A DNA stretch of 64,000 nucleotides, taken from a virus (taxonomy: Duplodnaviria > Heunggongvirae > Uroviricota > Caudoviricetes). Where the stretch lies: IMG/VR virus record IMGVR_UViG_3300032307_000691, one strand, 5' to 3'. The translations under genes were made by a program, and so were the position numbers. Shown here one piece after another: positions 20,130-60,831 of this stretch (position 1 is its first letter; every line of letters starts with the position of its first letter). Below the pieces are notes generated by a model. That model was not told the DNA's origin. It saw only the letters and a program-made list of their open reading frames with translations, and did not search any database.

Positions 20130-21650
20130 TTACAATCTATTTAAACGTTTACGAATTTCTGTTAAAGTTATTTGATTATGGAACTGTCCATTCTCATAAA
20201 TCGTTTGGAGAATACCCTGTGATTCTTGCTCCCAAGTACATTGTGTTAATACTTCATGTTCTTCAGTTACACAAATCAAACCCTTCAGGGATTTCTTGGT
20301 ACCATCATCAGTAACTGGGTCCTTATAGATGTCGTAAGAATGATATGTTTCTATCCCCACCTCATCTATTGTTTTTACCTCAAACCAAGCACCTTTAGCT
20401 GCGAAACCTAATGTGTCACGGGTATTCATTTGGTAAGTGAATGAACCAACACCTAATACGATGTTTGTTGCCGCAAATCCTTTAGCTTCTAATCTTCTAT
20501 AGATTTCCAATTGACGTTCTAACGTGATTGAATCACCGTAGATTGCTCCGATGTGTGGGTCAAGAACTTTGTAACCTTTATCATTGATTGTTCCACCAAA
20601 GATGTCCCAAAGTAATTCGATAACACCCTTAGCAGCAGGGTCCGTGACATTCTTATTTTCAGTGTACTGTAGTTCGTCATCGATAGAATAACTAAATCCA
20701 TAATCACCACAAATAATATCCACCGGATTACCTGAGTCAGGACGGATAACCAACTTACCGTCACGAGCCATGATAGCTTCTTTGTTTGCTGGTAAGTATT
20801 CGGTAATCAACTTCCACAAGTCAAATGTGTCAGATACGATTGAAAGGATTCCTTTAGGAAAATCAACCAACCAATCGGCAATCATTTGTTGTTCACCAAC
20901 CGTAAAGATTTTAGTTGTTGATACTGAGTGTTCAGATGCGTTTACTGAGTACACACATACTTGGTCTTCAGGTTCGTTGTAGAAGTAACGAGCACCGGGG
21001 ATGCAAATGATTGTATCAGAACCAAGGAATGAAGATGCGTGTCCTAATCCACTTGATAACATATCCCAAGGACTTAATCCACGTGCGGAGAAGTCATGAC
21101 AAAGGAAAGGAATCAAGAAAGCATTTGACGGGTCTGTCTTCATAACCCACTCAACAACATTACGTCTGTATTGTAGGGCAATTGTTGCTGATGTTGAAGG
21201 TTTCCATGACAATGAACTGATGATTGTTTCCAAGTACAAAGTCAACCATGCAAATCCATCAACAGTATTGATGAAAGTCATGTGAGGTACGTTTGGATTC
21301 GTTTCAATACCTTCGGGTAATGACTTAACACGGATAGGTAGGTACCCTAACTTGTGTAACTCAACGAAGTGTGTTGCATCGTAATCCATTCCAAGATACA
21401 TCGACATATCCTTTCCGAATCTTTCTGCAACCTCAATTGGTTGGTTGAAGAAGTTCTCTTGGAACTCGTCATGTAACCATTTAACAACAAGTTGTTGTCC
21501 GAATGATACAATTTTACTTACACCTCTTGGTGCATACTTAACACTACGTGGAATCCATGTTCCGTACAAACGTGTTGTGTCTTTTGCTAACATTCTTTTG
21601 TGGCCAATCTTATAGCCATCAGTGTAGAATAATGAATTTGGTTTAAACAT
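20130..21650 (-). CDS. nadV: nicotinamide phosphoribosyltransferase
   Basis: TDGYKIGH, KSLPEG, HDFSARG, IRPDSGNP, KDPVTDDGTKKSLKG align with NAMPT. Confidence 0.85.
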   Translation of the reverse strand: MFKPNSLFYTDGYKIGHKRMLAKDTTRLYGTWIPRSVKYAPRGVSKIVSFGQQLVVKWLHDEFQENFFNQPIEVAERFGKDMSMYLGMDYDATHFVELHKLGYLPIRVKSLPEGIETNPNVPHMTFINTVDGFAWLTLYLETIISSLSWKPSTSATIALQYRRNVVEWVMKTDPSNAFLIPFLCHDFSARGLSPWDMLSSGLGHASSFLGSDTIICIPGARYFYNEPEDQVCVYSVNASEHSVSTTKIFTVGEQQMIADWLVDFPKGILSIVSDTFDLWKLITEYLPANKEAIMARDGKLVIRPDSGNPVDIICGDYGFSYSIDDELQYTENKNVTDPAAKGVIELLWDIFGGTINDKGYKVLDPHIGAIYGDSITLERQLEIYRRLEAKGFAATNIVLGVGSFTYQMNTRDTLGFAAKGAWFEVKTIDEVGIETYHSYDIYKDPVTDDGTKKSLKGLICVTEEHEVLTQCTWEQESQGILQTIYENGQFHNQITLTEIRKRLNRL

Positions 21651-22814: not shown

Positions 22815-23546
22815 TTACTGTTCTAATGTTGGTTTAAGCCACAAAATATTTTCCTTGAAAATGTAATTTCTAAGTGCAGGATAATCGTTGAGAATTTTTA
22901 ATGTTTTAATCGTATCGTGTTTGAAACATTTAAATAACTCTTCCCTAATCCTTTCAATTGAAACTACTTTCATTTTTGTTTCGTAATCATAATCTTGGAT
23001 TACCCCGTCCATGAATGGTCCAATCCAAAATCCTTTGGTTACACAAAAACGAATTGCTCTGAGTATCCTCAATGGGTCATCATCAAAGGTTACTTTACAA
23101 TCCAACGGTGTTCTCAAGTAACCTCGTTTTAAATCTTCGATTCCGTTGAAGTAATCGATTAGGTTACCATCGGTATCTTTAGCAATCGCATTTAAAGTGA
23201 AGTCCCTACGAATCAAATCATCGTATAAAGTGCCAGGTTCAATTATTGGTTGTCTTGTGCCGGGAATGTAACCAACCTCTTTACGAGCCATTACAAAATC
23301 GGCAACACCCTGATGTTTATGTCCCACCGGAAACTTTGCTCGTATGGTAAAACAATCAGGTGTAACCAAAAATAATTCAAACCCTTCCTGTTTAAGATAT
23401 TCTTCAAGAATGCCAAACATGGTATGAGCAGAACTAACGTCTTTTAATAAATCATCTGATGGTACTGCAACGTAATCGACATCCTTAGATTCTAATTCAA
23501 GAATCTCGTCTCTAACCTTACCACCCACTTCATAAAATGTAAACAT
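22815..23546 (-). CDS. minimal nucleotidyltransferase (CCA-adding / polyA-polymerase head domain)
   Basis: N-terminal YEVGGKVRDEIL...DVDYV matches the GGxVRD...DxD head-domain motif. Confidence 0.6.
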   Translation of the reverse strand: MFTFYEVGGKVRDEILELESKDVDYVAVPSDDLLKDVSSAHTMFGILEEYLKQEGFELFLVTPDCFTIRAKFPVGHKHQGVADFVMARKEVGYIPGTRQPIIEPGTLYDDLIRRDFTLNAIAKDTDGNLIDYFNGIEDLKRGYLRTPLDCKVTFDDDPLRILRAIRFCVTKGFWIGPFMDGVIQDYDYETKMKVVSIERIREELFKCFKHDTIKTLKILNDYPALRNYIFKENILWLKPTLEQ

Positions 23547-23984: not shown

Positions 23985-24551
23985 TTAAAATAACGATTTG
24001 AGGTCTTCTCTCTCAACCGCTTTCTTCACTGCTTCGACGTATCCATCACCGGCTTCAGCATATACCGAAGAAAGGTATTGATAGTATTCACGTTCATTCC
24101 TGATATCAGAAAGATATCTACACTGATAAAAAGCATAATCATAAAGTGACTCATACCAGTTATCATAGTATGCGTGCCCATGTTGAGTGCCCTTTGCGGT
24201 GTTGATTCTAACTGTTGCTTGTTTCATTCCAAAGAGATTATGGTTCTCTTTGAATATTCTACTATTGAAGTTACCTGTCTCAATAATAGATTGTGCCATC
24301 ACGATGTGGGGGAATCTAACGTTCAATCGTTTCAATTCATCAACCATCTTTTCTTTACTGAATTTATTCTTTTCGGCTTCTAAACTAATGACCAGTAATT
24401 CTTTTTCGTAATGGTCAAGAGTACTGAACCTTTGGAATCTTCCAAGTAAGAAGGAGCCAATCATTAAAATCGCTATCGAAGAGAAAAACCATTTTGTCTT
24501 CTTTGTGTCTTTTTTCCAACGTAGGGACTTTTCATCAAATCTATAAAACAT
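23985..24551 (-). CDS. membrane-anchored peptidoglycan hydrolase, glucosaminidase (FlgJ-type) domain
   Basis: N-terminal TM helix; AQSIIETGNFNSRIFKENHNLFGMK matches the AQAxxESGWGxS...NNLFGIK glucosaminidase signature. Confidence 0.6.
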   Translation of the reverse strand: MFYRFDEKSLRWKKDTKKTKWFFSSIAILMIGSFLLGRFQRFSTLDHYEKELLVISLEAEKNKFSKEKMVDELKRLNVRFPHIVMAQSIIETGNFNSRIFKENHNLFGMKQATVRINTAKGTQHGHAYYDNWYESLYDYAFYQCRYLSDIRNEREYYQYLSSVYAEAGDGYVEAVKKAVEREDLKSLF

Positions 24552-24976: not shown

Positions 24977-25002
24977 TTTTTGGAATATCCAAAAAAATAT
25001 TC
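24977..25002 (-). promoter_or_regulatory. GAATATTC-type promoter-like box (minus strand reads GAATATTTTTTTGGATATTCCAAAAA)
   Basis: 40 nt upstream of start 24937; abuts the stop of 25002..25307. Confidence 0.45.
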
Positions 25003-25307
25003 TAAAAACTTTTATAGGGAACGTCGACTTCTATTTCCCAACTTGGGTGACGTAATCTGAAATACTTGATTAAACCAAGTACATGTTCGTTGTGTTCATC
25101 ATTTACCAAACGGTAGGTAACTTCCTTTACGATTTTACCATCGTCATAAGCGAACTCGACATTCGACATGATAGCCATTAGTTTTCCATCATAATAGATA
25201 TCAGTTCCTATGAAACTGAATTTAGCGGTGCTAATGTTACGCAGGGGGTTAGAAGCACAACCTAAAACAATTAAGGTTGTGACAAAAAGGAGTGTGAATT
25301 TTTTCAC
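25002..25307 (-). CDS. lipoprotein (101 aa)
   Basis: Signal peptide with lipobox VLGC. Confidence 0.55.
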   Translation of the reverse strand: MKKFTLLFVTTLIVLGCASNPLRNISTAKFSFIGTDIYYDGKLMAIMSNVEFAYDDGKIVKEVTYRLVNDEHNEHVLGLIKYFRLRHPSWEIEVDVPYKSF

Positions 25308-25717
25308 GGTCTTGAGTTCAGTTGTTGGGTTAGTCGTTCACGAACTTTATCACTGATTGGAATGGAGTTTCCATCCTCATCAATACGTACAAATGTAATA
25401 TTGGTGGACAACAATACATCCTCTTCATGTGTATACACATTAAAGGAACGAGCTTCTAAGTATAGTGTGATTGAGGTGCTACCAATCTTGGCTACCTCAC
25501 CATAGATTTTAAGTAGAGAACCTTCTTTTGCTGGTTTCTTAAACACGCACTTATCTATACAGATGGTAACCATTCGTCTGTTATGACAAACCTCCATAGC
25601 ATATGCTGCAGCCGACGCGTCAATCCACGCCATTAATTTCCCCCCGAAGAGATTACCGTGAAACCCTAAGTCGGATTTCTTAATCGGGTGCATGTTAATT
25701 AAATTCAATTTCTTCAA
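25304..25717 (-). CDS. acyl-CoA thioesterase, hotdog fold (YciA-like)
   Basis: HPIKKSDLGFHGNLFGGKLMAWIDASAAAYAMEV matches the 4HBT/YciA N-terminal region. Confidence 0.65.
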   Translation of the reverse strand: MKKLNLINMHPIKKSDLGFHGNLFGGKLMAWIDASAAAYAMEVCHNRRMVTICIDKCVFKKPAKEGSLLKIYGEVAKIGSTSITLYLEARSFNVYTHEEDVLLSTNITFVRIDEDGNSIPISDKVRERLTQQLNSRP

Positions 25718-25719
25718 AA

Positions 25720-25914
25720 TTATAAATTACCGAGATTAAAACGCTTTACTAAGATGTCGTAAAGTGATTTTAATTTGAACGATTTAAACGAATCGTTTTT
25801 GTCAATCACATTTAAGATTACAACATCGTTTTCAACTTCTTTTCTCTTTTCGAATTCGTTAAAAGATTTCTCAAGAGTTTCATCAATCCAATTTTTCATG
25901 TCTTTAGTTTTCAA
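25720..25914 (-). CDS. hypothetical protein (64 aa)
   Basis: ORF track. Confidence 0.4.
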   Translation of the reverse strand: MKTKDMKNWIDETLEKSFNEFEKRKEVENDVVILNVIDKNDSFKSFKLKSLYDILVKRFNLGNL

Positions 25915-26396
25915 AACAAATAAATTTTTGCCCCAAGTGTGAGATTAGTATTTCCATCTCGATACATTTCCTGAAAGGTGTGCAAAGATAGGTATATTGG
26001 ATTTACAATTCTAAAATCAATACCAACCTTACCGACCATCCCATTGTATGTTTTATAGATAGAAGGACCAATCCCGCCACTAATAAACAATCTTTTCGTC
26101 TTTTTGTTCTGATAAACATAGTTTATTAAATAATAAAAGTTTACCGGTTGACTGTTTAGTACAAATGGTTCATTCTGAACAATGTACATGCCCAAAGAAA
26201 TTGGTCTATGACCTAATTCAATTGATGATATGGAATTCTTAGAATTGAATCCATACCCAATGGAATAGAATGTGTTATAGTTTCTCGGTCCATATGATAG
26301 TGAATGGTTAAACAAACGAGAACCAATACCCGGATTTAATTGTGCGGATACTTGAACGCTTGTCAATACCAATAAAACTATAACTAATCTTTTCAT
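25911..26396 (-). CDS. small outer-membrane beta-barrel-like protein
   Basis: Signal peptide ending VSAQ; Y/G/N-rich alternating pattern; C-terminal ...KIYLF aromatic terminus. Confidence 0.5.
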   Translation of the reverse strand: MKRLVIVLLVLTSVQVSAQLNPGIGSRLFNHSLSYGPRNYNTFYSIGYGFNSKNSISSIELGHRPISLGMYIVQNEPFVLNSQPVNFYYLINYVYQNKKTKRLFISGGIGPSIYKTYNGMVGKVGIDFRIVNPIYLSLHTFQEMYRDGNTNLTLGAKIYLF

Positions 26397-26830
26397 TTCA
26401 TTAATGGTTCTAAACCTACTTTATCAAATACAATATTAGACAGTTTCCTGAATGAAACATCGGTTTCATAAACGTCCTCAAACTTTCTTACGTTATGAAT
26501 CGCGGTGGTGTGGTCCCTGTTACCAATCTTATGACCGATATGGGTATATGTTAACCTACATTTTTTTCTTAAAATGTATGCAACTATAAGACGAGCATCT
26601 ACAAACTCACGATTCCTATTTTTAGAAACCATTTGTTCATGAGTAATCCCAAACCTCTCAAGAATAATCTTAATTATTACGTCTTCATTCATTCGGTCTT
26701 TTAATTTGTACAAATATGGATGTTTACTCACATCCAACATTTCAACTTTAAGACCGGGATATATGTAAGGACTAATTTTATTACTCATTAGGTAGTTCTT
26801 GAATTTGAGCCAGATAATCGGTAACCTCAT
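26393..26830 (-). CDS. DnaA domain-IV-like helix-turn-helix protein
   Basis: [13 protein letters not shown]...[23 protein letters not shown] matches the DnaA C-terminal DNA-binding motif (GRDHTTVLHAxRKI). Confidence 0.6.
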
Positions 26831-27257: not shown

Positions 27258-27806
27258 TTAGAGTGATAAATAAAGTCGGTTATGATTATACAAGGCGACG
27301 GGATTAGAATCGGCAATCAGACCGTACTTATCCATTACGTGCTCGTAAGCTTTCTCTTGTGGTTCATTAATAACCTCAGATAAGATGTTACAGAAACCAA
27401 AATTGGATTCGTCAACAACATCTTGTTTTGTACCAGGTAAACCACAGTAGTAAGCTTCTCCAACCTCGGAGATAAACATCCCGGAGTAGAATCCTTTAAG
27501 TCCGTGGAGGTCCACAAACCTGTCGGCATTACACCAAATAAAAACTGAGTTGTCTTTTTCCTTTAACAAAGGAACCATAGTTTGGTCGATGATGTAACCA
27601 CCGGCTCCACCAAATCTTCCAATACTAAACAATCCACCGGGTGAACCGTGACCCATCATCATAACGCGGTCATGTTCCTTTATTAACTTTTTTATGTCTT
27701 CTTTACTAACCCCACCAGTAACTACTGTCTTGTTAGGAATTGGGTTGTAGACGATATCCAAGAAAGACGTTGATGAGTCTTCAGGATGTATAATTAATGT
27801 TTTCAT
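27258..27806 (-). CDS. hypothetical protein (182 aa)
   Basis: ORF track. Confidence 0.5.
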   Translation of the reverse strand: MKTLIIHPEDSSTSFLDIVYNPIPNKTVVTGGVSKEDIKKLIKEHDRVMMMGHGSPGGLFSIGRFGGAGGYIIDQTMVPLLKEKDNSVFIWCNADRFVDLHGLKGFYSGMFISEVGEAYYCGLPGTKQDVVDESNFGFCNILSEVINEPQEKAYEHVMDKYGLIADSNPVALYNHNRLYLSL

Positions 27807-27880: not shown

Positions 27881-28861
27881 TTATCCTCTACCCAAGTTGA
27901 TTTCAGGCATTGCTTCTGACATTACCTCACGAATTGTTCGAACTTCGTTCCCCACCAGTCTTTCCTCCATTGGTGCTTCATTCATTTCCATCATTGGTTC
28001 TTGTTCAGTAACCGCCATTTCCATATCCATAGGTTCAGGTTCAATCATACGTGACTTTTCATAAACTTGGGCGAAACTCTCTTCGATTTTTCTATCTTCT
28101 TCACTCAAGAATTGCATGTTTGGTACCGCAAGAACATTTTGAAATTCCTTTCTGATGATTTCCAAAATGAATGTTGGTAATGTTGTTTCCATTGAATCAA
28201 TTCGGTTATCGGTTTGATTCCAAAATGAAAGTTCGGGGTCATCGGCTCTTAACGATTTAAATGCGGCAACTTTTAATCCGGTAAGTTTGTTAATCACATA
28301 AACCAAGATACCTTTCTTTGAATAACGAAGGAAGTATTCAGGATTGCTCTCAGATGCAGTACACCATTTTGTTGATGAACCATATTTGCGAGATGCCAAG
28401 TATGTTAATGGTCTCAATACCACCCACTCATTGTCATTGTGTAATTTAATAACCTGTTTTTCCAAATCCTTCTCCATGGTTTTGATTTCCGCCAAACTAT
28501 TGGCACTCATTACCATTTCGAAATTGGTATACTTTGAAAGGTCATTGTCGGCAATCAAGCCTCTCTCATTGTACTCACAGAATTTTTGAAAAGCTTTGAT
28601 ATCTGATTGGTTGAACATCGTGTCAATCATACGATAGAAGAATATCATTTGGAAGTCGGATATCTCATCTAATTTATTCGGTGAAACATCGAAAGTGTTT
28701 GTGAATTCTCTTTTTATATCTCTAATGTAACTATCGGAATTACGGGTCTTCCTCATTATTCGAAGAAGTGTTTCAACATACTTTGGTTTACCCTCAGGTA
28801 CAAAGATTTTTAAAAGTTCAGCGACGTTGATAACGTTTTCAGAGTTATTTCTTAGATTCAT
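27881..28861 (-). CDS. conserved phage protein, paralog of 12574..13473 (family A)
   Basis: Shared YGSSTKWCTA block. Confidence 0.55.
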   Translation of the reverse strand: MNLRNNSENVINVAELLKIFVPEGKPKYVETLLRIMRKTRNSDSYIRDIKREFTNTFDVSPNKLDEISDFQMIFFYRMIDTMFNQSDIKAFQKFCEYNERGLIADNDLSKYTNFEMVMSANSLAEIKTMEKDLEKQVIKLHNDNEWVVLRPLTYLASRKYGSSTKWCTASESNPEYFLRYSKKGILVYVINKLTGLKVAAFKSLRADDPELSFWNQTDNRIDSMETTLPTFILEIIRKEFQNVLAVPNMQFLSEEDRKIEESFAQVYEKSRMIEPEPMDMEMAVTEQEPMMEMNEAPMEERLVGNEVRTIREVMSEAMPEINLGRG

Positions 28862-41914: not shown

Positions 41915-41940
41915 TATTTTTTAGAATATCTTAAATAAAA
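41915..41940 (-). promoter_or_regulatory. GAATATTC-type promoter-like box (AGATATTCTAAAAAA)
   Basis: Overlaps the stop of 41931..43319; upstream of a small unlisted ORF (~41683..41838). Confidence 0.35.
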
Positions 41941-43319
41941 TCGAATTTTTCTTTCTTTATTTCTAAATTCGAGAAGTTTTCCATCCTTTTGTTTAAGATT
42001 TCTATGGATTTGCTAAACAATTTATCTACCGGAGTATTAGCTTTACCATATGATTGTGATAGCTTACCCTTACGATATTGTAAGTTTATCGTCTTTTTAT
42101 TATGTGTCATTGAGAGATAAACATATGAGAGTGCCGTAACAAATTGTTTACCCATACAATTTTTCATATTATATCCTTCAGTTATGAAATCATCTTCAGT
42201 TTTTAAAACTCTAATCTCAAATTTTTCATCATCAATTATGATTGGTATTTCAATCTGATTAACGAAATCACCTGAGTGACTCACCCTAACTCTATAACCT
42301 TTTTTAAAGTGGTTTTTTAAACTCTCCCATTTTTTAAACATTAATTCAAAACTGTCATCATCTTTAGCAATGAATTTAACTTCCATATTTTTATTTGAAA
42401 GGAATTCTCTAATGGTGAGAACTTCATTTAATGAGTGTACCAATGAACTGGTTTGTAATCCTGACTTCTCCCAATTATTAAACAACTGCACTAAGTATTT
42501 TTTCTCGGATTCGTTTTTTAATGTGTGGTAACGGTTGTTCGCAACATTAATTCCACAACTATGTTCCATCCAATTAATTTGTTTTATATAATCAATATAA
42601 TTCTCACCAAACAATCTACAGATGTAACTCAATGTTCTAATGTTCACATCTCTTTCTTGTGCTTTGTTTATTTCACCAATTAGATATTTGTTTTTGATTC
42701 CATACGAATCAAGAACTGACGGTATGAATTTATATTCATTCTCCTTTAACCATTTTGATTTGGGGTAGTCATGTAGAAGGGAGTAGTAAACACCATCATG
42801 GCCTTTTATTTTCTTCCTATCCAAATGAAAGTCAACAATCAAATCATAGAAACTATTGAGGTTTGTTTTGTTAACGTAATCTTTATCCTTGAGGTGTTCA
42901 CTCTCAATTAATGGGGTTAATCTTGACACGAGATATCTAACAACATCATCACATGCTCGTTTATATTTTACTCCCCAATAATTGGTTCTCTTCTCACCTT
43001 TCAAACAACCATTTTCAGTTAGGTCCAATAGATAATCAAATCTATTATCGCCTCTCTTACTTTTATTCTTTATCATTTCTTCACCCAAACTTTCATTTAC
43101 CAATTGATAGTAAACGTTGAAGTTCCCACTCTTTAATTTCAAACTAAATCCATGGGAGATTAAAATCTTTTTGAGCTTGCCGAATCTTTTATAATCAAAT
43201 GAGAACTCGGAATAGAAATGTATATCTTCTGAGGTTTCATATAACCTCATCTCACAAACATATTCGAGATTTGTTTTGCGTTCTTTTTTAACTTGTCGGT
43301 GATTAACCAATAAATCCAT
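41931..43319 (-). CDS. large conserved phage protein, paralog of 43365..45245 (family B)
   Basis: Shared blocks IPSVLDSYGIKNKY / LLSVLDSYGIKSKF and EGYNMKNCMGKQF / EGSFMHHCVASYANK. Confidence 0.55.
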   Translation of the reverse strand: MDLLVNHRQVKKERKTNLEYVCEMRLYETSEDIHFYSEFSFDYKRFGKLKKILISHGFSLKLKSGNFNVYYQLVNESLGEEMIKNKSKRGDNRFDYLLDLTENGCLKGEKRTNYWGVKYKRACDDVVRYLVSRLTPLIESEHLKDKDYVNKTNLNSFYDLIVDFHLDRKKIKGHDGVYYSLLHDYPKSKWLKENEYKFIPSVLDSYGIKNKYLIGEINKAQERDVNIRTLSYICRLFGENYIDYIKQINWMEHSCGINVANNRYHTLKNESEKKYLVQLFNNWEKSGLQTSSLVHSLNEVLTIREFLSNKNMEVKFIAKDDDSFELMFKKWESLKNHFKKGYRVRVSHSGDFVNQIEIPIIIDDEKFEIRVLKTEDDFITEGYNMKNCMGKQFVTALSYVYLSMTHNKKTINLQYRKGKLSQSYGKANTPVDKLFSKSIEILNKRMENFSNLEIKKEKFDFI

Positions 43320-43364: not shown

Positions 43365-45245
43365 CTAAAAACCAAATGGGTCGTGTTCTAAAAACCCGGC
43401 ACCTCCACCCGCTTGTGGGATTGGTACTTCTTTACCGTTAATTTTAACCCTAACTTTTTTAACATCAATGTGGTCGAGTAATCTCGAATACCTCAATGAT
43501 TTGATTCTATCTGACACAACACTAAGTGCTTTATTGAAATGTTCAGGTGGTATACGATTACAGAAATGACGTTCTTGTACAACGTGACCTGTTTTCTTAT
43601 CGTACTCACAGGTTACCCTATCCATTCCATTATTTAAACGAATAGATACTATCATTGACGTTTCTTTATTTGCATATGATGCAACGCAGTGATGCATAAA
43701 TGAACCTTCCTCAGCGTACTCCTCCTCCCTCTTTAATATCGTGGGATGAAATTCATAGATTTCATCATTGAATTCATAGATGATAGGGGTTTCAATCTTC
43801 CTTACCGTTCTGTTATCGTAAACATATTCTTTGGACCAACCTTTACGAATAGTTGATATTAGTTTGGTTAGCTCCAAGTGTTCAGTGTGAAACTCATCGT
43901 AGGTTGTTGACCTCAATTTATATGAAGGGTCGTACTCCTTTAATTTTTTAATCATATCAACGTGGTCCCTAAACAAACTGTATAATCCACTGACCGCTCT
44001 TAGTGGTGATTCGTTACCCGCTTTGACAAGTGAGTTGATGATTTTAATTATGTTCTCCTTTTCTGATTGTTCCAAATCATGTTGTTCAGTCAACCTTCGA
44101 GCATTAATTGGTACTGGTGACTGGTAAACATTCTTTTCTTTTTTATCAAAAAACTTTAAAACCTTTTCATCCAAATTACCCATGTACTTACTGTACTCAC
44201 TACCAAAGAAACTTGCGAAATTTCTTATCTCAAAGATGTCCATGTTGGTATTGGTATGGAATAACTTGTTTGTGAATTTTGATTTGATTCCATAACTATC
44301 CAACACCGATAATAAAAGTTTATTATCATTCCGTTTTAGGTATTTCTGACCCGGATAGTGGAATCGAATTAAGGACATGTAATCATTTGGTACCTTAATC
44401 TTCTTTGTTTTAACGAAGAAATCGATAAACCTTTTTAATAGGTCATTCCTACCCTCGTTCTCCCTGATGTTAGGTAACCACGAATTTAATTGACCCATCT
44501 CCTCCAAGATTGCTTGTATGAATTCGGTATCGTTGATTGTTTTACAAAACTCAGGATAGATTTTATGATTCCCATTTACTACACTAATGAAATTAAAGAA
44601 ACCATTTGATGTGATGAGACGCTCAACAAATGCAAAGGAGTTTTTTCTAAAACGTGTACTCCTACTATTACCAATAACATTTGTTTCACCTATTGTGAAG
44701 TTACCGGTTGATAGGTCGAATGTTAAACTCTCGGAATGAAATTTCCTTTTAAAGTATATTCTATTTACTCCTCTGTATTTTGTAAATTTCTTTGCCTTAA
44801 TAACAAGTTTTCCTTCATCGATAACAATTGTTCTTTCTATTGTTACTATAATAATAGATGATGAGGGTCTACCGTAATGTCTTTTGATGTGTTTGTCTTC
44901 GGTGGTGTAGAAATTCTCCCCACCATCAGTACCATAAAAGCTTATGAATGGAACTTTACTATGTTCCTTTGGTTCATCATTATCTAAATGATAATGATTG
45001 GTTTTCCTATTATTCTTTTTTTTGAAGAAGGTGATATCGGTAACAACTTTCCTAAATGGAGTTGGGCGTTTTTTAAGCTCATCAATTAAACGAACTGTGT
45101 TCTCACCAAATATGTCATCGAAATCGTAATTCTTGGTCTCATGTTTATTCATTCGTTTTAACATGATACCCCTATCCTGAATGTTACAATAATCCTTACA
45201 GACCTTGATTATCGCGTATTGGAATCTCTGATTTAATATTTCCAT
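43365..45245 (-). CDS. large conserved phage protein (626 aa, family B)
   Basis: Tandem paralog; HHCVASY Cys motif. Confidence 0.55.
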   Translation of the reverse strand: MEILNQRFQYAIIKVCKDYCNIQDRGIMLKRMNKHETKNYDFDDIFGENTVRLIDELKKRPTPFRKVVTDITFFKKKNNRKTNHYHLDNDEPKEHSKVPFISFYGTDGGENFYTTEDKHIKRHYGRPSSSIIIVTIERTIVIDEGKLVIKAKKFTKYRGVNRIYFKRKFHSESLTFDLSTGNFTIGETNVIGNSRSTRFRKNSFAFVERLITSNGFFNFISVVNGNHKIYPEFCKTINDTEFIQAILEEMGQLNSWLPNIRENEGRNDLLKRFIDFFVKTKKIKVPNDYMSLIRFHYPGQKYLKRNDNKLLLSVLDSYGIKSKFTNKLFHTNTNMDIFEIRNFASFFGSEYSKYMGNLDEKVLKFFDKKEKNVYQSPVPINARRLTEQHDLEQSEKENIIKIINSLVKAGNESPLRAVSGLYSLFRDHVDMIKKLKEYDPSYKLRSTTYDEFHTEHLELTKLISTIRKGWSKEYVYDNRTVRKIETPIIYEFNDEIYEFHPTILKREEEYAEEGSFMHHCVASYANKETSMIVSIRLNNGMDRVTCEYDKKTGHVVQERHFCNRIPPEHFNKALSVVSDRIKSLRYSRLLDHIDVKKVRVKINGKEVPIPQAGGGAGFLEHDPFGF

Positions 45246-46309: not shown

Positions 46310-47508
46310 TTACTTAAAGGTGCCTTAATTGATGGGTGAGATTGGTAATTCAACAATTCAAAATTATGAATACTGTAATAATCCAAATCTAACTTATTTG
46401 GGTCCGGTTTCCCAAATTCAAATAAGGTAGGACTTATTTTTAATATGGGTAACTTAAATGGTTCTCTAGTATGTCTTGGTATTTCATATTCATCGTATGC
46501 CCAACTTAAACCTCCACCAAATGGTACCAAATCTTTTACCGCGGAATTATAATTCTTCTCACCCATTGCATTTTTTAATAACGTAATTCTCTCTTCATGA
46601 GAATACTTTCTACCAATTTGTTCTTTAGCTTGTTCAATATGATTTAGATATAAGTGTGTGTCACCCAAGTTTCCAATCAATTCATCTGGAATCATATTTA
46701 CTTCTTTTGCGATAATTTCGAGTAACAAAGCATAACTCGCTATATTGAATGGTAATCCTAAAAAAGTATCAACTGAACGTTGATTCCACATTAATGAGAT
46801 TGCTCGTTTTGGAACTCTCAAACTATCCATATGGACGTGATGATAATCCGAACTTCTACCCAACGGGTCTTTTGTTTTGTTGTAATAATCGATTCGTTCA
46901 TCCAAGTTCAACTCTCTTGTATAAACTTGAAACCCATAATGACAAGGTGGAAGTACCATTCGGTTTAATTCACCTACATTCCAAGCATTAACCATTAATC
47001 GTCTTGAGTCAGGATTTGTTTTAAGGTCGTTGATTAGGTTTACGATTTGGTCTGTGTTAGAATTTAATCCTTCCCAACTTCTCCATTGTTCACCATAGAT
47101 TGGACCTAATTCACCCCACTTTTTAGCAAACTCATCATCGGTTTTGATTTTGTTGATGAAGTCTTCTTTAGAAATTAAAATTCGAGTTTCGTGAAAATCT
47201 TTATCATTCTCATTAGGTCGACTATTGTTTAAATAATTCATATACGCATCACCATCCCAAATATGACAACCATTATCAACAAGGAACTTGATATTTGTAT
47301 CACCACGAAGGAACCATAATAACTCGGTCACCATAGTTTTCCAAGCCATCTTCTTAGTAGTTAGAAGAGGAAACCCTTCACTCATCTTATGACGGATTTG
47401 TCTACCGAATACTGAAATAGTGCCGGTACCTGTTCTGTCTTTCTTCTCCACACCATTATCTATGATGTCCTGAAGAAGTTTCTGATATTGCTTATCAATG
47501 TTATTCAT
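46306..47508 (-). CDS. thyA: thymidylate synthase family protein with large insertions (ThyA; a dNMP hydroxymethylase cannot be excluded)
   Basis: GFPLLTTKK...LLWFLRGDTN, GPIYGEQWRSW, LPPCHYGFQVYT, DTFLGLPFNIASYALLLEIIA...GDTHLY; about 400 aa versus roughly 264-316 typical. Confidence 0.75.
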   Translation of the reverse strand: MNNIDKQYQKLLQDIIDNGVEKKDRTGTGTISVFGRQIRHKMSEGFPLLTTKKMAWKTMVTELLWFLRGDTNIKFLVDNGCHIWDGDAYMNYLNNSRPNENDKDFHETRILISKEDFINKIKTDDEFAKKWGELGPIYGEQWRSWEGLNSNTDQIVNLINDLKTNPDSRRLMVNAWNVGELNRMVLPPCHYGFQVYTRELNLDERIDYYNKTKDPLGRSSDYHHVHMDSLRVPKRAISLMWNQRSVDTFLGLPFNIASYALLLEIIAKEVNMIPDELIGNLGDTHLYLNHIEQAKEQIGRKYSHEERITLLKNAMGEKNYNSAVKDLVPFGGGLSWAYDEYEIPRHTREPFKLPILKISPTLFEFGKPDPNKLDLDYYSIHNFELLNYQSHPSIKAPLSN

Positions 47509-47870
47509 TATTCAAATGTTTGAATTTTGGCGTCAACCTCTTTTAATTCTGACCATGTTCCAAGATATGTGATTGCTCTAACCTTTCGGTTATCAATCCA
47601 TACATATTCTTGACCATCTTTTATTCTTGGTTTATCCATAACTAAACCATGGTATCTAAATCCTTTTTCTTTTAACCATGTCTCAGTTACTTCTCTGTCT
47701 TTACTTTCCCTTGCGGTAAAGAAAGTAATGATATGACCTTCATCATACCATTTGTTAATTATTTCTAATGCTCTTGGGAAATGATTCGCCGTCGGGTAAA
47801 GATGTGAATCTTCATTTTTGATGTCATCACAGACCGTACCATCAATGTCAATTAAAAATACCTTATTCAT
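47508..47870 (-). CDS. HAD-like phosphatase
   Basis: VFLIDIDGTVCD DxDGT motif. Confidence 0.55.
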   Translation of the reverse strand: MNKVFLIDIDGTVCDDIKNEDSHLYPTANHFPRALEIINKWYDEGHIITFFTARESKDREVTETWLKEKGFRYHGLVMDKPRIKDGQEYVWIDNRKVRAITYLGTWSELKEVDAKIQTFE

Positions 47871-48096
47871 TTTCTTTTATAATCTCATAACCTTTTTGTG
47901 ATTGGAATCCAATCATTATAGTTAACCACCTGAAAGCAAATCCCCAAGCAGGTGTGTAGACACCGGTTTCAAGAAATGTATCTTTCCTGTAAAAAAATAC
48001 GACAGTTGGAATAATAAACCAATGGTATCTCTTATTATAGATAAAGAAATCTTTATCCCAAGTTGTCCTCATTTTCATTTTGTTCTCGCTTTTCAT
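47863..48096 (-). CDS. hypothetical protein (77 aa)
   Basis: ORF track. Confidence 0.4.
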   Translation of the reverse strand: MKSENKMKMRTTWDKDFFIYNKRYHWFIIPTVVFFYRKDTFLETGVYTPAWGFAFRWLTIMIGFQSQKGYEIIKENE

Positions 48097-48283
48097 CTTT
48101 CAATTTTGTTATGCATTTGAAAATACAATACGATTCATCTATGGTAAACGCACCTTGAATGTTGGCATGTGATAACGCTAAATCAATAATGGTAAGTGCT
48201 TGATTTGGTTCAATCTCTTCTAACCAATCAATCAAATCTTTTTTATTATCGTATTCAAATGATTCCCCAAATAAATTTGGCAT
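48053..48283 (-). CDS. hypothetical protein (76 aa)
   Basis: ORF track. Confidence 0.4.
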   Translation of the reverse strand: MPNLFGESFEYDNKKDLIDWLEEIEPNQALTIIDLALSHANIQGAFTIDESYCIFKCITKLKDEKREQNENEDNLG

Positions 48284-48294
48284 ATGTTTAAGTT

Positions 48295-48615
48295 TTAATC
48301 GTCGTAATCTCCGGTGGTTCTTCTTAGAAGTTTATCCACTTCGTCTTCTCTTTCCTTTAATTCAATGATTCTTATGTAATAAGCATTGTCATCAGATTCG
48401 GGGGCTTCCGCTTTAATGTTTTTATCAAACCACTTCGCGAACCATTTCCCCTTGTACATCAAAACTTGGCATCTTTCACCAAATTCATCAGCATCTACTT
48501 TGTCCAGTAAACCTTCATCAACAAGTTTATTCAATACGATTTCTTTAACCTTGTTAAAGTTTGACATTTCTGAAGTTAAGTCCATATCTATCGTCTTTTT
48601 TAAAATATAACACAA
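48295..48615 (-). CDS. hypothetical protein (106 aa)
   Basis: ORF track. Confidence 0.5.
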   Translation of the reverse strand: MCYILKKTIDMDLTSEMSNFNKVKEIVLNKLVDEGLLDKVDADEFGERCQVLMYKGKWFAKWFDKNIKAEAPESDDNAYYIRIIELKEREDEVDKLLRRTTGDYDD

Positions 48616-48646
48616 ATATACGAGAAATCCAAATAATTATAGAAAT

Positions 48647-49012
48647 ATGTTAGCAATAGTAAACGGAAAACAATTCCAAGGAGAATACCTAACCCAACCC
48701 CATGAGATTCAAAAAGGAATGATGGGTAGAGATTCTCTTGATGGTTGTATGGTTTTTAAAATGGGAATGGGGCATCACACGTTTTGGATGAAAAACTGTG
48801 TTATCCCATTAGATATTGTATTTGTAAACAAGAATAGAATTTCCCATATACATCAGAATTGTCCTCCCGCAGATTCACACGATATGAATCCACCGAGGTA
48901 TACTGGTATCGGTGACCACGTAATAGAATTCCCTGCAGGTACCTGTCAAGGTTGGAAGGTTGGGGATAAGGTTAACCTCTATCTTGGTACTCCACAGAAC
49001 CCTGTGGGATAA
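48647..49012 (+). CDS. DUF192-family protein
   Basis: HTFWMKNCVIPLDIVFVNKNRI matches the DUF192/COG1430 core. Confidence 0.5.
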   Translation: MLAIVNGKQFQGEYLTQPHEIQKGMMGRDSLDGCMVFKMGMGHHTFWMKNCVIPLDIVFVNKNRISHIHQNCPPADSHDMNPPRYTGIGDHVIEFPAGTCQGWKVGDKVNLYLGTPQNPVG

Positions 49013-49672
49013 AATCGTAAGTAACCTTCGGTTTCACTTTCTCGAATACCCAAAAATAACTGTGGTACTTTCTTGCGTGGTGTTGTTTTGACCACTTGGT
49101 TCCGTTAAATGCATTCACTCTGATGTTGGAAGTTAAGACAAACATATCTCTTGGATAGAATCCAAGTGAGTATGCCATGTTCATAACCATAACGTGACTG
49201 AAATATTGTTTACCACCTGACACTGTGTCCTGACATTTCATCACCACAAATCCACCATCTTCACACAACCTGTAAAGTTCTTTGAGTGTGTTGTAGTAAT
49301 TTGATTTTAAATCATCGTAGGTTCCATAACCCTCAAATCTTTTAGCGATGATAGAACTTCCTTCTCTATTGTTTCTGTAACGAGCTCCACTACCAACAAT
49401 AACGAATGGTGGGTCGTACATGATATTTTTCATTGAACCTGATTCAAACGGTAAGTCCTCTGAGTTTGCCTCAATGACATGGTCGTAATGGGGATAAAGG
49501 TCGGTCTTATGTACCGGGTCGGGTAATCCCTTCCAAAAGTTTCCTTTTGAATAGGTACAATCCAAATCGAATCGTTCAATACCGTACAAATGCATGATAT
49601 TAGTAATTGCTTCGTGGTTAGAGGTATACACACTCTTTACCATCTTAAAATCTTTATCCATAGTTATCATAT
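48972..49672 (-). CDS. DNA N6-adenine/N4-cytosine methyltransferase-like protein
   Basis: IMYDPPF motif-IV-like DPPF; start trimmed to MITMDKDF. Confidence 0.45.
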
Positions 49673-59143: not shown

Positions 59144-59309
59144 TGATTCGGTTTAAAAGGTTTTCTTTAATCTCATTCTCATCTTTGAATAAATGAAAAT
59201 GAACGGGTTTATTACACATACAAGTGAAGTCCATATATTCGTTCACTAGTTCTTTATACTTCGTTTCTAAAAATTCAATTCGTTCTTTTAATTCTTTAAT
59301 CTCGTCCAT
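59137..59309 (-). CDS. possible small coiled-coil protein (about 57 aa) bridging the halogenase and membrane genes; coordinates approximate
   Basis: MDEIKELKERIEFLETKYKELVNEYMDFTCMCNKPVHFHLF...; overlaps the halogenase 3' end in another frame. Confidence 0.2.
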
Positions 59310-60831
59310 ATTTCTCCCTTAATTGTTCATAAAGGTTTGGTAATAACTCAGTCAAGAGTTTTGTTTCATATTTAATTAAATCTATTTTCTTTTCCATGTA
59401 AGGAAGATACTTTTCTTTGATTTCAATCCTTGGTCTTCTTCCAAATGGATTGTTGTAAAAGAATCCCGTGCCCCATAACCATTGGAACCAGTTTACTGAA
59501 CCGAAGATTCTACCTCTGAATAATTCCTCAGCAGGTCTCACGGCCATAATCTGTAACTTCTGCATCAATGTGTCAGGAATAAATGATTTGGTTTTACAAT
59601 CTCTCCAAAAAGGAGTATCGTTTCTTTGACAAGTCAGGTAGTGTGCGTGAATGAAATCACGAATATCAATCATCATATCAATATTATCCTTGTTGATAAT
59701 ATCAATTGTTTGTGAAGTGTAGTTCAAATCGTTTCTTTCAAGTTCAGTTGCCAATGTTGACATAATTCCTTGGAAGGTAGAAATGCCGGTTGATTCCATT
59801 GGTTCGGCAAATCCTCCTGCCAATCCACAAGCAACAACATTTTTAACCGCAACTCTTTCACGAGTACCAACTCTCATGTTGATTTTTAAAACATCACCTT
59901 CATAACCACCATGGAATTCTCTAAACTCCTTCTCAGCTTCTTCATCAGTAATATACTTTGATGAGTAAACATAACCGGAACCGATTCTATCATAAATTGG
60001 TGTTTTCCATAACCAACCACTATTCATCGTATACAATCTACTGTAAGGTTCCATTTCTGTTGACTTATCCTTGTATTGAATAGGTGCAGCAATCGCCTTA
60101 TCACAGAATAATGAATCTTCAAATGAGATGAATGGTTCACCCATTACCGATTCAATCAACGCACCTTTGAAACCTGAACAATCTATATAAAGGTCCGCTT
60201 TGAACTTTTGTTGGTCCCATAATTTAATATCTTGGATGAATCCAAAATCATCAAGTTTAACTTGTTTAAGGTCACCCTCAACAAACTTTACTCCATTAGG
60301 GATACAAACTTTATTTTTGATTACCTCTGCGAATTTGATTGCATCGAAATTGTAACTATAAACACTTTCAATATCGTTAAACGTTGGGATGTAACTTAAT
60401 TCATCATCAACAGTTGGTGATAGGTTTTGAAGTGCTAAGGTTGGTGAGAGAAATAACTCATTTATTTTGTGTGGGTCATTCTCATGATATTTTAAAAGAT
60501 ATTGTAAGAGATTTGTTTTTTGATTGATGTACAATGTTTGTTCGTTCTCCACCAAAACAAAATGGTCGCCCTTTTCTGACCAATTCATAAATCTCCCACC
60601 GTATTTGTAAACTGCTGAAGATTCTTCCATCCAATCTTTTTCTTCCAATCCAATGAACTTCATAAAGGAATGAAGACTTGCGGTGGAGCTTTCACCCACA
60701 CCAATTGTTCCAATTTTTTTGGAATGAATTAATGTAATATCAAGTTTATCTTTAAAAACTTTTGATAATAATGCCGCGGTCATGATACCTGCGGTACCGC
60801 CACCGACGATTAATATTTTTTTTACTTCCAT
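59296..60831 (-). CDS. flavin-dependent halogenase (tryptophan-halogenase family)
   Basis: N-terminal ILIVGGGTAG FAD fold; GWLWKTPIYDRIG matches the halogenase WxWxIP motif. Confidence 0.7.
   Translation of the reverse strand: MEVKKILIVGGGTAGIMTAALLSKVFKDKLDITLIHSKKIGTIGVGESSTASLHSFMKFIGLEEKDWMEESSAVYKYGGRFMNWSEKGDHFVLVENEQTLYINQKTNLLQYLLKYHENDPHKINELFLSPTLALQNLSPTVDDELSYIPTFNDIESVYSYNFDAIKFAEVIKNKVCIPNGVKFVEGDLKQVKLDDFGFIQDIKLWDQQKFKADLYIDCSGFKGALIESVMGEPFISFEDSLFCDKAIAAPIQYKDKSTEMEPYSRLYTMNSGWLWKTPIYDRIGSGYVYSSKYITDEEAEKEFREFHGGYEGDVLKINMRVGTRERVAVKNVVACGLAGGFAEPMESTGISTFQGIMSTLATELERNDLNYTSQTIDIINKDNIDMMIDIRDFIHAHYLTCQRNDTPFWRDCKTKSFIPDTLMQKLQIMAVRPAEELFRGRIFGSVNWFQWLWGTGFFYNNPFGRRPRIEIKEKYLPYMEKKIDLIKYETKLLTELLPNLYEQLREKYGRD

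What the first reader, a model, noticed from the sequence alone, without database searches (positions are those of the whole stretch)
25002..26830. Phage-encoded lipoprotein, hotdog thioesterase, small OMP-like barrel and DnaA domain-IV mimic in one stretch
Four consecutive genes encode a lipobox lipoprotein (VLGC), a YciA-like acyl-CoA thioesterase, a 140-aa beta-barrel-like OMP (VSAQ...KIYLF) and a protein carrying only the DnaA C-terminal DNA-binding helix-turn-helix ([16 protein letters not shown]). A free-standing DnaA domain IV could compete with host DnaA at DnaA boxes to shut off host replication or regulate phage origins. The envelope proteins suggest surface remodelling or superinfection exclusion.
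Basis: partly seen in the sequence, partly recalled or inferred. Interest (0 to 1): 0.55.

Follow-up and report, generated by a model that had tools for sequence, protein, structure and literature searches.

The report
Phage stand-alone DnaA DNA-binding domain protein
A giant uncultured phage carries a small protein that is just the DNA-reading head of the bacterial replication initiator DnaA plus a short conserved tail; it belongs to a large, uncharacterised phage family, and its neighbours (lipoprotein, thioesterase, outer-membrane barrel) are real but unrelated accessory genes.

Summary
On the minus strand of 25002-26830 lie five tightly packed genes, not four:
- a 101-aa lipoprotein precursor;
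- a hotdog (4HBT) thioesterase;
- a 161-aa signal-peptide protein that models as an 8-stranded outer-membrane barrel;
- a 131-aa protein whose residues 35-124 are a bona fide DnaA domain IV (Pfam 70 bits; 1.3 Å rmsd to 1J1V).

The DnaA-like protein keeps 5 of the 6 base-contacting residues of E. coli DnaA; Pro423 is replaced. It also carries a conserved N-terminal peptide, ISPYxFPGL, in a region modelled with low confidence.

It belongs to a large family of stand-alone proteins of about 110-190 aa. 265 copies were confirmed in IMG/VR viral contigs, many of them 200-335 kb. In other phages these genes sit in replication and recombination modules, and DnaB-type helicase is the commonest neighbour.

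The four genes are not a conserved unit. In relatives, only the DnaA-like gene persists.

Neither the window nor 68 homologous loci show an excess of canonical DnaA boxes.

Most likely the protein is a DnaA-box-type DNA binder acting in phage replication control. Whether it occludes host oriC, marks a phage origin or activates transcription is untested. I rate it a new member of a known but uncharacterised kind, of moderate interest.

The parts
26393..26788 (-). Stand-alone DnaA domain IV protein, 131 aa. The ORF extends to 26830, but the ATG at 26788 is the probable start.
   Evidence: Pfam Bac_DnaA_C, 70.3 bits. NCBIfam DnaA equivalog matched only over its C-terminal 86 positions. The 100% identical database protein P0001 is 131 aa. 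Start-site argument.
26417..26686 (-). Domain IV fold, residues 35-124 of the 131-aa protein.
   Evidence: AF2 pLDDT is 81-96 over this stretch. Foldseek against 1J1V: target-normalised TM 0.91, rmsd 1.3 Å over 93 columns.
26477..26524 (-). Recognition segment [16 protein letters not shown], equivalent to E. coli DnaA G430-E445. It holds D433, H434, T435 and H439.
   Evidence: Translation; alignment to 1J1V; residue census.
26750..26776 (-). Conserved N-terminal peptide motif ISPYIYPGL, lying in a region of low model confidence.
   Evidence: Translation. P7, Y8 and P11 are invariant in 19 divergent members. pLDDT is 47-61 over residues 1-30.
25911..26396 (-). 161-aa precursor of a small 8-stranded outer-membrane beta-barrel: signal peptide [18 protein letters not shown]|Q and C-terminal ...GAKIYLF.
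   Evidence: AF2 gives 8 strands with barrel pLDDT 81-91. Best PDB fold hits are OmpA-TM, NspA, OprF, OmpX and Ail. Many phage-encoded OM barrels appear in BFVD. The terminal F, Y159 and G155 are invariant in 10 homologues.
25720..25914 (-). Small ORF of 64 aa (59 aa from the ATG at 25899), function unknown.
   Evidence: ORF list; called as 59 aa in the source; 69% identical in L008; no family hit.
25304..25717 (-). Hotdog-fold acyl-CoA thioesterase, 137 aa from the TTG or 129 aa from the ATG at 25693.
   Evidence: Pfam 4HBT E 1.8e-14. phrog_18230 E 1e-22. Best PDB sequence matches are acyl-CoA hydrolases 3D6L, 1VPM and YciA 1YLI. It is 96% and 88% identical in L008 and L009, the best conserved of these genes.
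25002..25307 (-). 101-aa lipoprotein precursor, MKKFTLLFVTTLIVLG|C, with a GTG start overlapping the thioesterase stop.
   Evidence: Translation. The start is ATG in L008 and the N-terminus is conserved. Homologues of 101 aa occur only in this phage lineage. No family hit.

Best explanation
The 131-aa protein is a free-standing DnaA domain IV, the DNA-reading head of the bacterial initiator. It has none of the parts that oligomerise, bind ATP, unwind DNA or load helicase. It probably docks as a monomer on 9-bp sites resembling DnaA boxes. Its conserved, probably flexible N-terminal peptide (ISPYxFPGL) probably holds a partner protein. I therefore read it as a site-specific adaptor in the phage's replication programme. 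It would mark DnaA-box-like sites, on the phage or at host oriC, and bring or block another factor there. A purely passive competitor seems less likely.

Shown: the domain identity, the fold, the retained contact residues, the family, and the family's genomic context.
Inferred: DNA specificity, the role of the tail, and the outcome for replication.

The neighbouring lipoprotein, thioesterase and outer-membrane barrel are separate accessory genes. They point to a host with an outer membrane. They are probably co-transcribed with the DnaA-like gene but are not functionally tied to it.
For: - Domain identity: Pfam 70.3 bits against a cut-off of 31.5; PDB sequence hits are DnaA only.
- Fold: target-normalised TM 0.91 and rmsd 1.3 Å to the DnaA domain IV-DnaA box complex 1J1V.
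- Contact residues: the base-specific contacts are R399, P423, D433, H434, T435 and H439 (PMC2533591, PMC7561715). The window protein keeps five of them. In 60 short family members, R399 and H434 are kept in 60/60, D433 in 54/60, T435 in 42/60 (S in 11) and H439 in 45/60.
- Family: the best 150 of 11,254 hits among 1.84 billion representatives are mostly 110-150 aa and align from residue 4-5 onwards. 265 relatives were confirmed in IMG/VR contigs; in the 72 examined, the ORFs are 113-405 aa, mostly under 200.
- N-terminal motif: invariant P, Y and P within a low-pLDDT tail.
- Context: DnaB_C helicase is the commonest family among 115 proteins within two genes of viral homologues (14 hits). In 12 phages carrying the motif subfamily, the flanking 6 kb hold DnaB (3), DNA polymerase A, ERF (2), YqaJ (2) and DNA methylases (6).
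- Persistence: in jumbo relatives the gene is retained while the envelope genes and thioesterase are lost.
Against: - No excess of DnaA boxes in the 64-kb window: TTATCCACA with up to one mismatch occurs 29 times against 29.8 expected, and strict TTWTNCACA occurs 3 times.
- No excess of strict boxes within 1 kb of the gene in 68 viral loci: 0.138 against 0.109 per kb.
- No iteron arrays were seen beside homologues.
- P423 is replaced in all 60 family members (K, T or S), so the site recognised may differ from the canonical box. That would also weaken the box counts as a test.
- The 14 DnaB neighbours come largely from one related clade of 165-190-aa proteins, so they are not independent observations.
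- In this jumbo phage the immediate neighbours are not replication genes.
- No partner for the N-terminal motif is identified, and the host is unknown.
Confidence: 0.4

Rival explanations
1. Passive decoy. The free domain IV simply occupies the host's high-affinity DnaA boxes at oriC and in DnaA-regulated promoters. This keeps host DnaA off and shuts down host initiation during takeover.
For: Five of six base-contact residues are kept, and R399 and H434 are invariant across members only 30-40% identical. That pattern fits selection for a target conserved across hosts. The protein lacks every DnaA activity domain. No DnaA-box clusters occur in the window or beside homologues, so the targets could be in the host.
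Against: A decoy needs no conserved N-terminal peptide motif. P423 is never retained. The family's context in other phages is beside the phage's own helicase and recombination genes. No toxicity or binding data exist.
Confidence: 0.25
2. Transcription factor for phage genes. A DnaA-type helix-turn-helix is reused as the DNA-binding head of an activator or repressor. The precedents are the N-terminal DnaA-like domain of the gene-transfer-agent activator GafA, and the small DnaA-like genes upstream of gafA in Hyphomicrobiales.
For: PMC9638019 reports that GafA's DnaA-like N-terminal domain is probably essential for activating RcGTA promoters. It also reports stand-alone DnaA-like genes preceding gafA homologues. 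The window protein is small, and its N-terminal motif could contact RNA polymerase or a co-activator.
Against: GafA's similarity to DnaA is weak, whereas this family keeps the DnaA contact residues almost intact. No repeated DnaA-box-like motif was found in the window. There is no sigma-like second domain, and no adjacent gafA-like gene was seen among neighbours.
Confidence: 0.2
3. The lipoprotein, thioesterase, barrel and DnaA-like protein form one functional module that couples envelope remodelling to replication control.
For: All five ORFs are co-directional, with 4-nt start/stop overlaps or gaps of a few bases. No convincing internal promoter or terminator was found.
Against: Synteny breaks down in relatives. 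The lipoprotein is present only in L001, L002 and L008. The thioesterase is absent from L011. The barrel is absent from L012-L026. The DnaA-like gene persists throughout, travelling instead with the 182-aa and 326-aa proteins. Tight packing is the norm across this window: 92.6% is coding, and 85 of 110 ORFs lie on one strand.
Confidence: 0.04

Closest known systems
DnaA domain IV (E. coli DnaA residues 374-467, PDB 1J1V; Pfam PF08299 Bac_DnaA_C)
   Same: Same fold: rmsd 1.3 Å, target-normalised TM 0.91. Same RDHTT recognition segment. R399, D433, H434, T435 and H439 equivalents are kept.
   Different: No domains I-III: it is 131 aa against about 450, and scores 70 bits against the 343.9-bit DnaA equivalog cut-off. 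P423 is replaced by T. It has an extra conserved N-terminal ISPYxFPGL peptide that DnaA lacks.
GafA N-terminal DnaA-like domain, and the small DnaA-like genes upstream of gafA in Hyphomicrobiales (gene transfer agent activators; PMC9638019)
   Same: A DnaA-type DNA-binding head used outside the initiator, in a phage-derived element, sometimes as a separate small protein.
   Different: GafA shows only patchy similarity to DnaA and works together with a sigma-like C-terminal part and the RNA polymerase omega subunit. Here the DnaA residues are well kept, and no such partner domain or gene is seen.
Prophage-encoded DnaA antagonists YqaH (B. subtilis skin element) and YfdR (E. coli cryptic prophage)
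   Same: Phage-derived small proteins aimed at host replication initiation (listed).
   Different: By their titles and abstracts, they bind the DnaA protein itself. They are not DnaA homologues and are not thought to read DnaA boxes.
Hda (DnaA paralogue consisting of the AAA+ domain only)
   Same: A single DnaA domain used on its own, with a short N-terminal peptide (a clamp-binding motif) that tethers a partner. This comparison rests on my own knowledge of Hda.
   Different: Hda is the opposite fragment (domain III), is cellular, and does not bind DNA sequence-specifically. The ISPYxFPGL motif does not match the QL[SD]LF or QLSLPL clamp motifs.
Phage-encoded small outer-membrane barrels and lipoproteins (lambda Lom and Bor; T5 Llp and phi80 Cor exclusion lipoproteins)
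   Same: A signal peptide followed by an 8-stranded barrel ending in Phe. BFVD contains many phage barrels of this size, including ones from Tenacibaculum, Cellulophaga and Vibrio phages. The lipoprotein has a signal peptide and a lipobox Cys. The functions of Lom, Bor, Llp and Cor are from my own knowledge.
   Different: No sequence-family membership: there is no Pfam, PHROG or NCBIfam hit for either protein. Both occur only in this phage lineage. No function has been tested.
YciA/BH1999-type (TE6) hotdog acyl-CoA thioesterases
   Same: Pfam 4HBT hit. The best PDB sequence matches are acyl-CoA hydrolases 3D6L, 1VPM and H. influenzae YciA 1YLI.
   Different: It scores 39 bits against the 162-bit YciA equivalog cut-off, so it is not a YciA orthologue. 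It belongs to phage family phrog_18230, of unknown function.

Membership tests
DnaA domain IV (PF08299 Bac_DnaA_C) | Profile score above Pfam's gathering threshold | tested here: met
   70.3 bits against 31.5, E 1.4e-19, covering profile positions 2-68 of 69.
DnaA domain IV (PF08299 Bac_DnaA_C) | Helical fold superposable on solved domain IV-DNA complexes | tested here: met
   Foldseek against 1J1V gives target-normalised TM 0.91 and rmsd 1.3 Å; against 3PVP, TM 0.88. Model pLDDT is 81-96 over residues 31-120.
DnaA domain IV (PF08299 Bac_DnaA_C) | Base-specific contact residues R399, P423, D433, H434, T435 and H439 | tested here: inconclusive
   Five of six are kept and P423 is replaced by T. 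Across the family, P423 is kept in 0 of 60 members, while R399 and H434 are kept in 60 of 60.
DnaA domain IV (PF08299 Bac_DnaA_C) | Binds the 9-bp DnaA box TTWTNCACA | not testable with these tools
   This needs EMSA or SELEX. Only indirect data exist: no excess of boxes in the window or near homologues.
Chromosomal initiator DnaA (full length) | Domain I, linker and AAA+ domain III present | tested here: not met
   The protein is 131 aa. NCBIfam TIGR00362 gives 70 bits against a cut-off of 343.9, matching only positions 343-428 of 437.
GafA/GafY-type GTA activators | DnaA-like DNA-binding domain combined with, or adjacent to, a sigma-like/DUF6456 part | tested here: not met
   There is no second domain. 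No such family appeared among the top 25 families matched by 115 and 96 neighbour proteins of viral homologues.
8-stranded outer-membrane beta-barrel (OmpA-TM/OmpX/Ail class) | Signal peptide, eight antiparallel strands and a C-terminal aromatic residue | tested here: met
   AF2 gives 8 strands. The top PDB fold matches are all 8-stranded OM barrels, with probability 1.0 and TM 0.36-0.58. F161 is invariant. The signal peptide was read from the sequence; no predictor was available.
8-stranded outer-membrane beta-barrel (OmpA-TM/OmpX/Ail class) | Membership of a curated sequence family (such as Ail_Lom or OMP_b-brl) | tested here: not met
   No Pfam, NCBIfam or PHROG hit.
Bacterial lipoprotein | Basic N-region, hydrophobic core, and a lipobox ending in Cys within the first 15-35 residues | tested here: met
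   MKKFTLLFVTTLIVLG-C17, conserved in L008, which has an ATG start. The match to the PROSITE-type lipobox rule was judged by eye from memory. No acylation data exist.
Spanin (o-spanin or u-spanin) of a lysis cassette | Lipoprotein paired or embedded with an i-spanin, or carrying a C-terminal membrane helix, and retained together with the endolysin | tested here: not met
   There is no C-terminal hydrophobic helix, and the two small ORFs between it and the endolysin have no membrane segment. The lipoprotein is absent from L009-L011, which keep the glucosaminidase.
YciA acyl-CoA thioesterase (NCBIfam NF007970 equivalog) | Score above the equivalog cut-off | tested here: not met
   39.1 bits against 162. 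Only the superfamily domain 4HBT is met.

The most novel reading that the evidence does not exclude
The ISPYxFPGL-plus-domain-IV proteins are a widespread phage device for hijacking bacterial origins. The head reads the nearly universal DnaA box. The tail recruits a phage or host factor, such as a helicase or nuclease. The phage thereby blocks, or takes over, host oriC and other DnaA-box sites. That would be a new class of replication-takeover factor, and an easily transferable tool for probing DnaA-box occupancy.
Probability: 0.2. Interest if true: 0.7.

Novelty: new member of a known kind. Interest (0 to 1): 0.38.

Why it matters
DnaA-box recognition is conserved across bacteria. A phage family that keeps only the reading head, plus a tethering peptide, would be a compact and portable way to interfere with or exploit origin recognition. 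The family is abundant in viral metagenomes and has a PHROG entry, but in the literature I could search nobody has tested what it does. A handful of simple experiments would settle it: EMSA or SELEX, toxicity on expression, and a pull-down with the N-terminal peptide. The envelope genes and the thioesterase are ordinary phage accessory genes and add little.

Tried and rejected
- **Nearest phage.** Nothing at DNA level. The conserved 182-aa neighbour gave only one weak protein hit. The phage is uncultured and the host stays unknown.
- **DnaA-box enrichment in the window.** None overall. A cluster of 7 one-mismatch sites at 47.3-49.7 kb exceeds 300 block shuffles. However, it lies in coding DNA, contains no strict box, and has no iterons, so I treat it as weak.
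- **DnaA boxes near homologues in 68 viral loci.** No excess.
- **Iterons in the gap between the DnaA-C gene and the DnaB helicase in three loci.** None found.
- **Spanin reading of the lipoprotein.** Rejected on anatomy and on its loss from relatives that keep the endolysin.
- **Defence or anti-defence role.** No PADLOC hit for any of seven proteins.
- **Sigma-70 promoters and terminators in 24.5-28 kb.** At chance level.
- **Annotating the conserved 182-aa and 326-aa partners.** No Pfam or PDB match.
- **Literature on phage stand-alone DnaA domain IV.** Five searches found nothing directly relevant. The GafA precedent came from a sixth search.
- **Small viral contigs as microviruses.** I suspected this, but L085 proved to be a dsDNA phage fragment with a RecA-like gene.
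- **AFDB fold library.** Unavailable.
- **Family-wide locus search.** The wide alignment A2 was too divergent to search with, so the closer set A3 was used.
Full report
**What is there**

The minus strand of 25002-26830 carries five co-directional ORFs, joined by 4-nt start/stop overlaps or gaps of a few bases:
- 26393-26830: DnaA-like protein.
- 25911-26396: 161 aa.
- 25720-25914: 64 aa.
- 25304-25717: 137 aa.
- 25002-25307: 101 aa.

**Where it comes from**

- The window is an exact piece of a 318,562-bp metagenome contig, ENA ERZ28594783 scaffold_9.
- It is about 35% G+C and 92.6% coding, with 85 of 110 ORFs on one strand. It has no tRNA genes.
- PHROG and Pfam hits are typical of large phages: NAMPT, thymidylate synthase, a CCA-adding enzyme, a membrane-anchored glucosaminidase endolysin, PcfJ-like paralogues and glycosyltransferases.
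- Syntenic relatives are IMG/VR viral contigs of 245-335 kb.
- No deposited phage is close.
- 'Phage-encoded' is therefore well founded, although no virion gene lies in the window.
- The host is unknown. Two observations point to a diderm host, perhaps Bacteroidota: the outer-membrane barrel and lipoprotein themselves, and a threefold concentration of TAnnTTTG just upstream of genes. This is a weak inference.

**The DnaA-like protein: identity**

- Pfam Bac_DnaA_C scores 70.3 bits against a cut-off of 31.5.
- NCBIfam DnaA models match only their last ~86 positions, far below cut-off.
- PDB sequence hits are DnaA proteins only.
- An AlphaFold2 model built on 19 family members has pLDDT 81-96 over residues 31-120. 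It superposes on the E. coli domain IV-DnaA box complex 1J1V with rmsd 1.3 Å and target-normalised TM 0.91.
This is DnaA domain IV.
- The real start is most likely the ATG at 26788, giving 131 aa. The 14 upstream codons overlap the preceding gene, carry a stop in the L008 orthologue, and are absent from all database homologues.

**The DnaA-like protein: DNA-reading residues**

R399, P423, D433, H434, T435 and H439 make the base-specific contacts in 1J1V (PMC2533591 and PMC7561715).

| E. coli residue | Window protein | 60 short family members |
|---|---|---|
| R399 | kept | 60/60 |
| P423 | replaced by T | 0/60 (K, T or S) |
| D433 | kept | 54/60 |
| H434 | kept | 60/60 |
| T435 | kept | 42/60 (S in 11) |
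| H439 | kept | 45/60 |

Ungapped alignment to 1J1V shows the window protein keeps five of the six. The head very probably reads something close to a DnaA box, possibly with one position changed. This is an inference.

Residues 5-13, ISPYIYPGL, form a motif. Its P, Y and P are invariant in members only 33-50% identical to the window protein. It sits in a stretch of low model confidence (pLDDT 47-61). That is the signature of a short linear motif that binds a partner. It does not match the clamp-binding motifs I know of. This comparison is from memory.

**The family**

- An exhaustive HMMER search of 1.84 billion representatives found 11,254 hits. The best 150 are overwhelmingly 110-150 aa and align from residue 4-5 to about 126.
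- A few proteins carry 2-9 tandem copies of domain IV.
- A pattern scan of IMG/VR confirmed 265 viral copies. In the 72 loci examined, the ORFs are 113-405 aa, mostly under 200.
- In one genome per GTDB species, the best 80 matches cover only the domain IV part, as chromosomal DnaA would. The single exception is one short Patescibacteria contig.
- PHROGs holds a related family of unknown function, phrog_16091.
- One deposited Rhizobium phage annotates its copy as 'DnaA-like'.
- The gene is therefore a member of a common, named but uncharacterised phage family, not an oddity of this genome.

**Genomic context of the family**

- Among jumbo relatives the DnaA-like gene is retained down to 30% identity. 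It travels with a 182-aa and a 326-aa protein of unknown function and an RNase T-like exonuclease.
- The barrel is found only in L008-L011, the thioesterase only in L008-L010, and the lipoprotein only in L001, L002 and L008. The 'one stretch' is therefore not a module.
- In other phages, I scanned 115 proteins lying within two genes of a homologue. DnaB-type helicase was by far the commonest family, with 14 hits. Most of these belong to one clade of 165-190-aa proteins and so are not independent.
- In 12 phages with the ISPY-motif subfamily, the flanking 6 kb hold DnaB, DNA polymerase A, ERF, YqaJ, RecA/KaiC-like ATPases and DNA methylases. The usual setting is the replication and recombination region.

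**Tests of where the protein might bind**

- Canonical DnaA boxes are not enriched in the window: 29 observed against 29.8 expected with one mismatch allowed, and three strict boxes in 64 kb.
- They are not enriched within 1 kb of homologues in 68 loci: 0.138 against 0.109 per kb.
- No iterons lie beside three homologues.
- A local cluster of seven one-mismatch sites at 47.3-49.7 kb exceeds 300 shuffles. It is coding DNA, has no strict box, and has no repeats.
- I could read only 64 of the 318 kb, so a phage origin elsewhere cannot be excluded.

**Mechanism**

| Reading | Confidence | Main support | Main objection |
|---|---|---|---|
| Site-specific adaptor in the replication programme | about 0.4 | Conserved tail, helicase and recombination neighbourhood, systematic P423 change | No binding sites found |
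| Transcription factor in the manner of GafA (PMC9638019) | about 0.2 | Precedent for a DnaA-like head, needed for GTA promoter activation, and for small DnaA-like genes beside gafA | DnaA contact residues are far better kept than in GafA; no sigma-like partner seen |

In the adaptor reading, the head docks on DnaA-box-like sites and the tail holds a partner. All three readings are inferences. Only the anatomy is shown.

**The other genes**

- **Barrel.** The 161-aa protein has a signal peptide, eight modelled strands (barrel pLDDT 81-91) and an invariant C-terminal Phe. Its PDB fold neighbours are all 8-stranded outer-membrane barrels. BFVD shows many similar phage proteins, including ones from Tenacibaculum, Cellulophaga, Vibrio and Synechococcus phages.
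- **Lipoprotein.** The 101-aa protein has a textbook lipoprotein signal ending in LG-C17. Its start is ATG in L008 and its N-terminus is conserved. It occurs only in this lineage. It is not a spanin.
- **Thioesterase.** It is a 4HBT hotdog enzyme nearest to acyl-CoA hydrolases. It falls below the YciA orthologue cut-off. It belongs to phrog_18230 and is the most conserved gene of the set.
- **Roles.** Exclusion or surface remodelling are reasonable by analogy with Lom, Bor, Llp and Cor. That analogy rests on my own knowledge and is untested here.

**Verdict**

The finding is a new member of a known, uncharacterised kind. Interest is moderate. The family is abundant, it keeps the DnaA reading head intact together with an unexplained tail, and it is cheaply testable. 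Nothing here is categorically new, and the four-gene grouping is incidental.

Noticed in passing
Proteins P0051, P0075, P0055 and P0058 (not in the window): Some relatives carry tandem arrays of DnaA domain IV in one polypeptide: 5 copies in 673 aa, 9 matched stretches in 1680 aa, 3 in 343 aa and 2 in 232 aa. Such proteins could clamp whole clusters of DnaA boxes.
   Followed up: no
window 27258-27806 and 27881-28861 (minus strand); L017, L019, L021 and L026: A 182-aa protein with a GHGSPGG...WCNAD His/Cys pattern and a 326-aa protein stay next to the DnaA-like gene even in distant jumbo relatives. Neither has a Pfam or PDB match. They are candidate partners.
   Followed up: partly
window 47273-49662: Seven one-mismatch TTATCCACA sites lie within 2.4 kb, next to the strand switch at about 50 kb. 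This is more than in any of 300 block shuffles. All are in coding DNA, none is a strict box, and no repeats were found.
   Followed up: partly
L050-L072, L031, L037, L081 and L082 (viral loci): A second clade of viral DnaA domain IV proteins (165-190 aa, with an N-terminal helix and a GYYP motif) sits two genes upstream of a DnaB-type helicase. This resembles an initiator-helicase replication module.
   Followed up: partly
window 23985-24551 (minus strand): The glucosaminidase endolysin has an N-terminal hydrophobic segment (KWFFSSIAILMIGSFLLG), which suggests a signal-anchored endolysin. No holin or spanin was recognised nearby.
   Followed up: no
window 41931-43319 and 43365-45245 (minus strand): Two adjacent PcfJ-like paralogues (Pfam PF14284).
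   Followed up: no
window 59296-60831, 20130-21650 and 22815-23546 (minus strand): The same window carries three auxiliary genes: a tryptophan-halogenase-like protein (phrog_2928), NAMPT and a CCA-adding/poly(A) polymerase family enzyme.
   Followed up: no
whole window: TAnnTTTG, which I recall as the Bacteroidota -7 promoter box, is depleted overall (62 against 86 expected). However, 11 of the 62 lie in the oriented 60 nt upstream of ORFs, which make up 5% of the search space. This is a weak hint at a Bacteroidota host.
   Followed up: partly
L085 3212-3577: One family member keeps the N-terminal INPYIYPGL motif but has lost the RDHTT recognition segment (GLTTRAAITRL). The tail motif can therefore persist when the DnaA-type reading residues diverge.
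   Followed up: no
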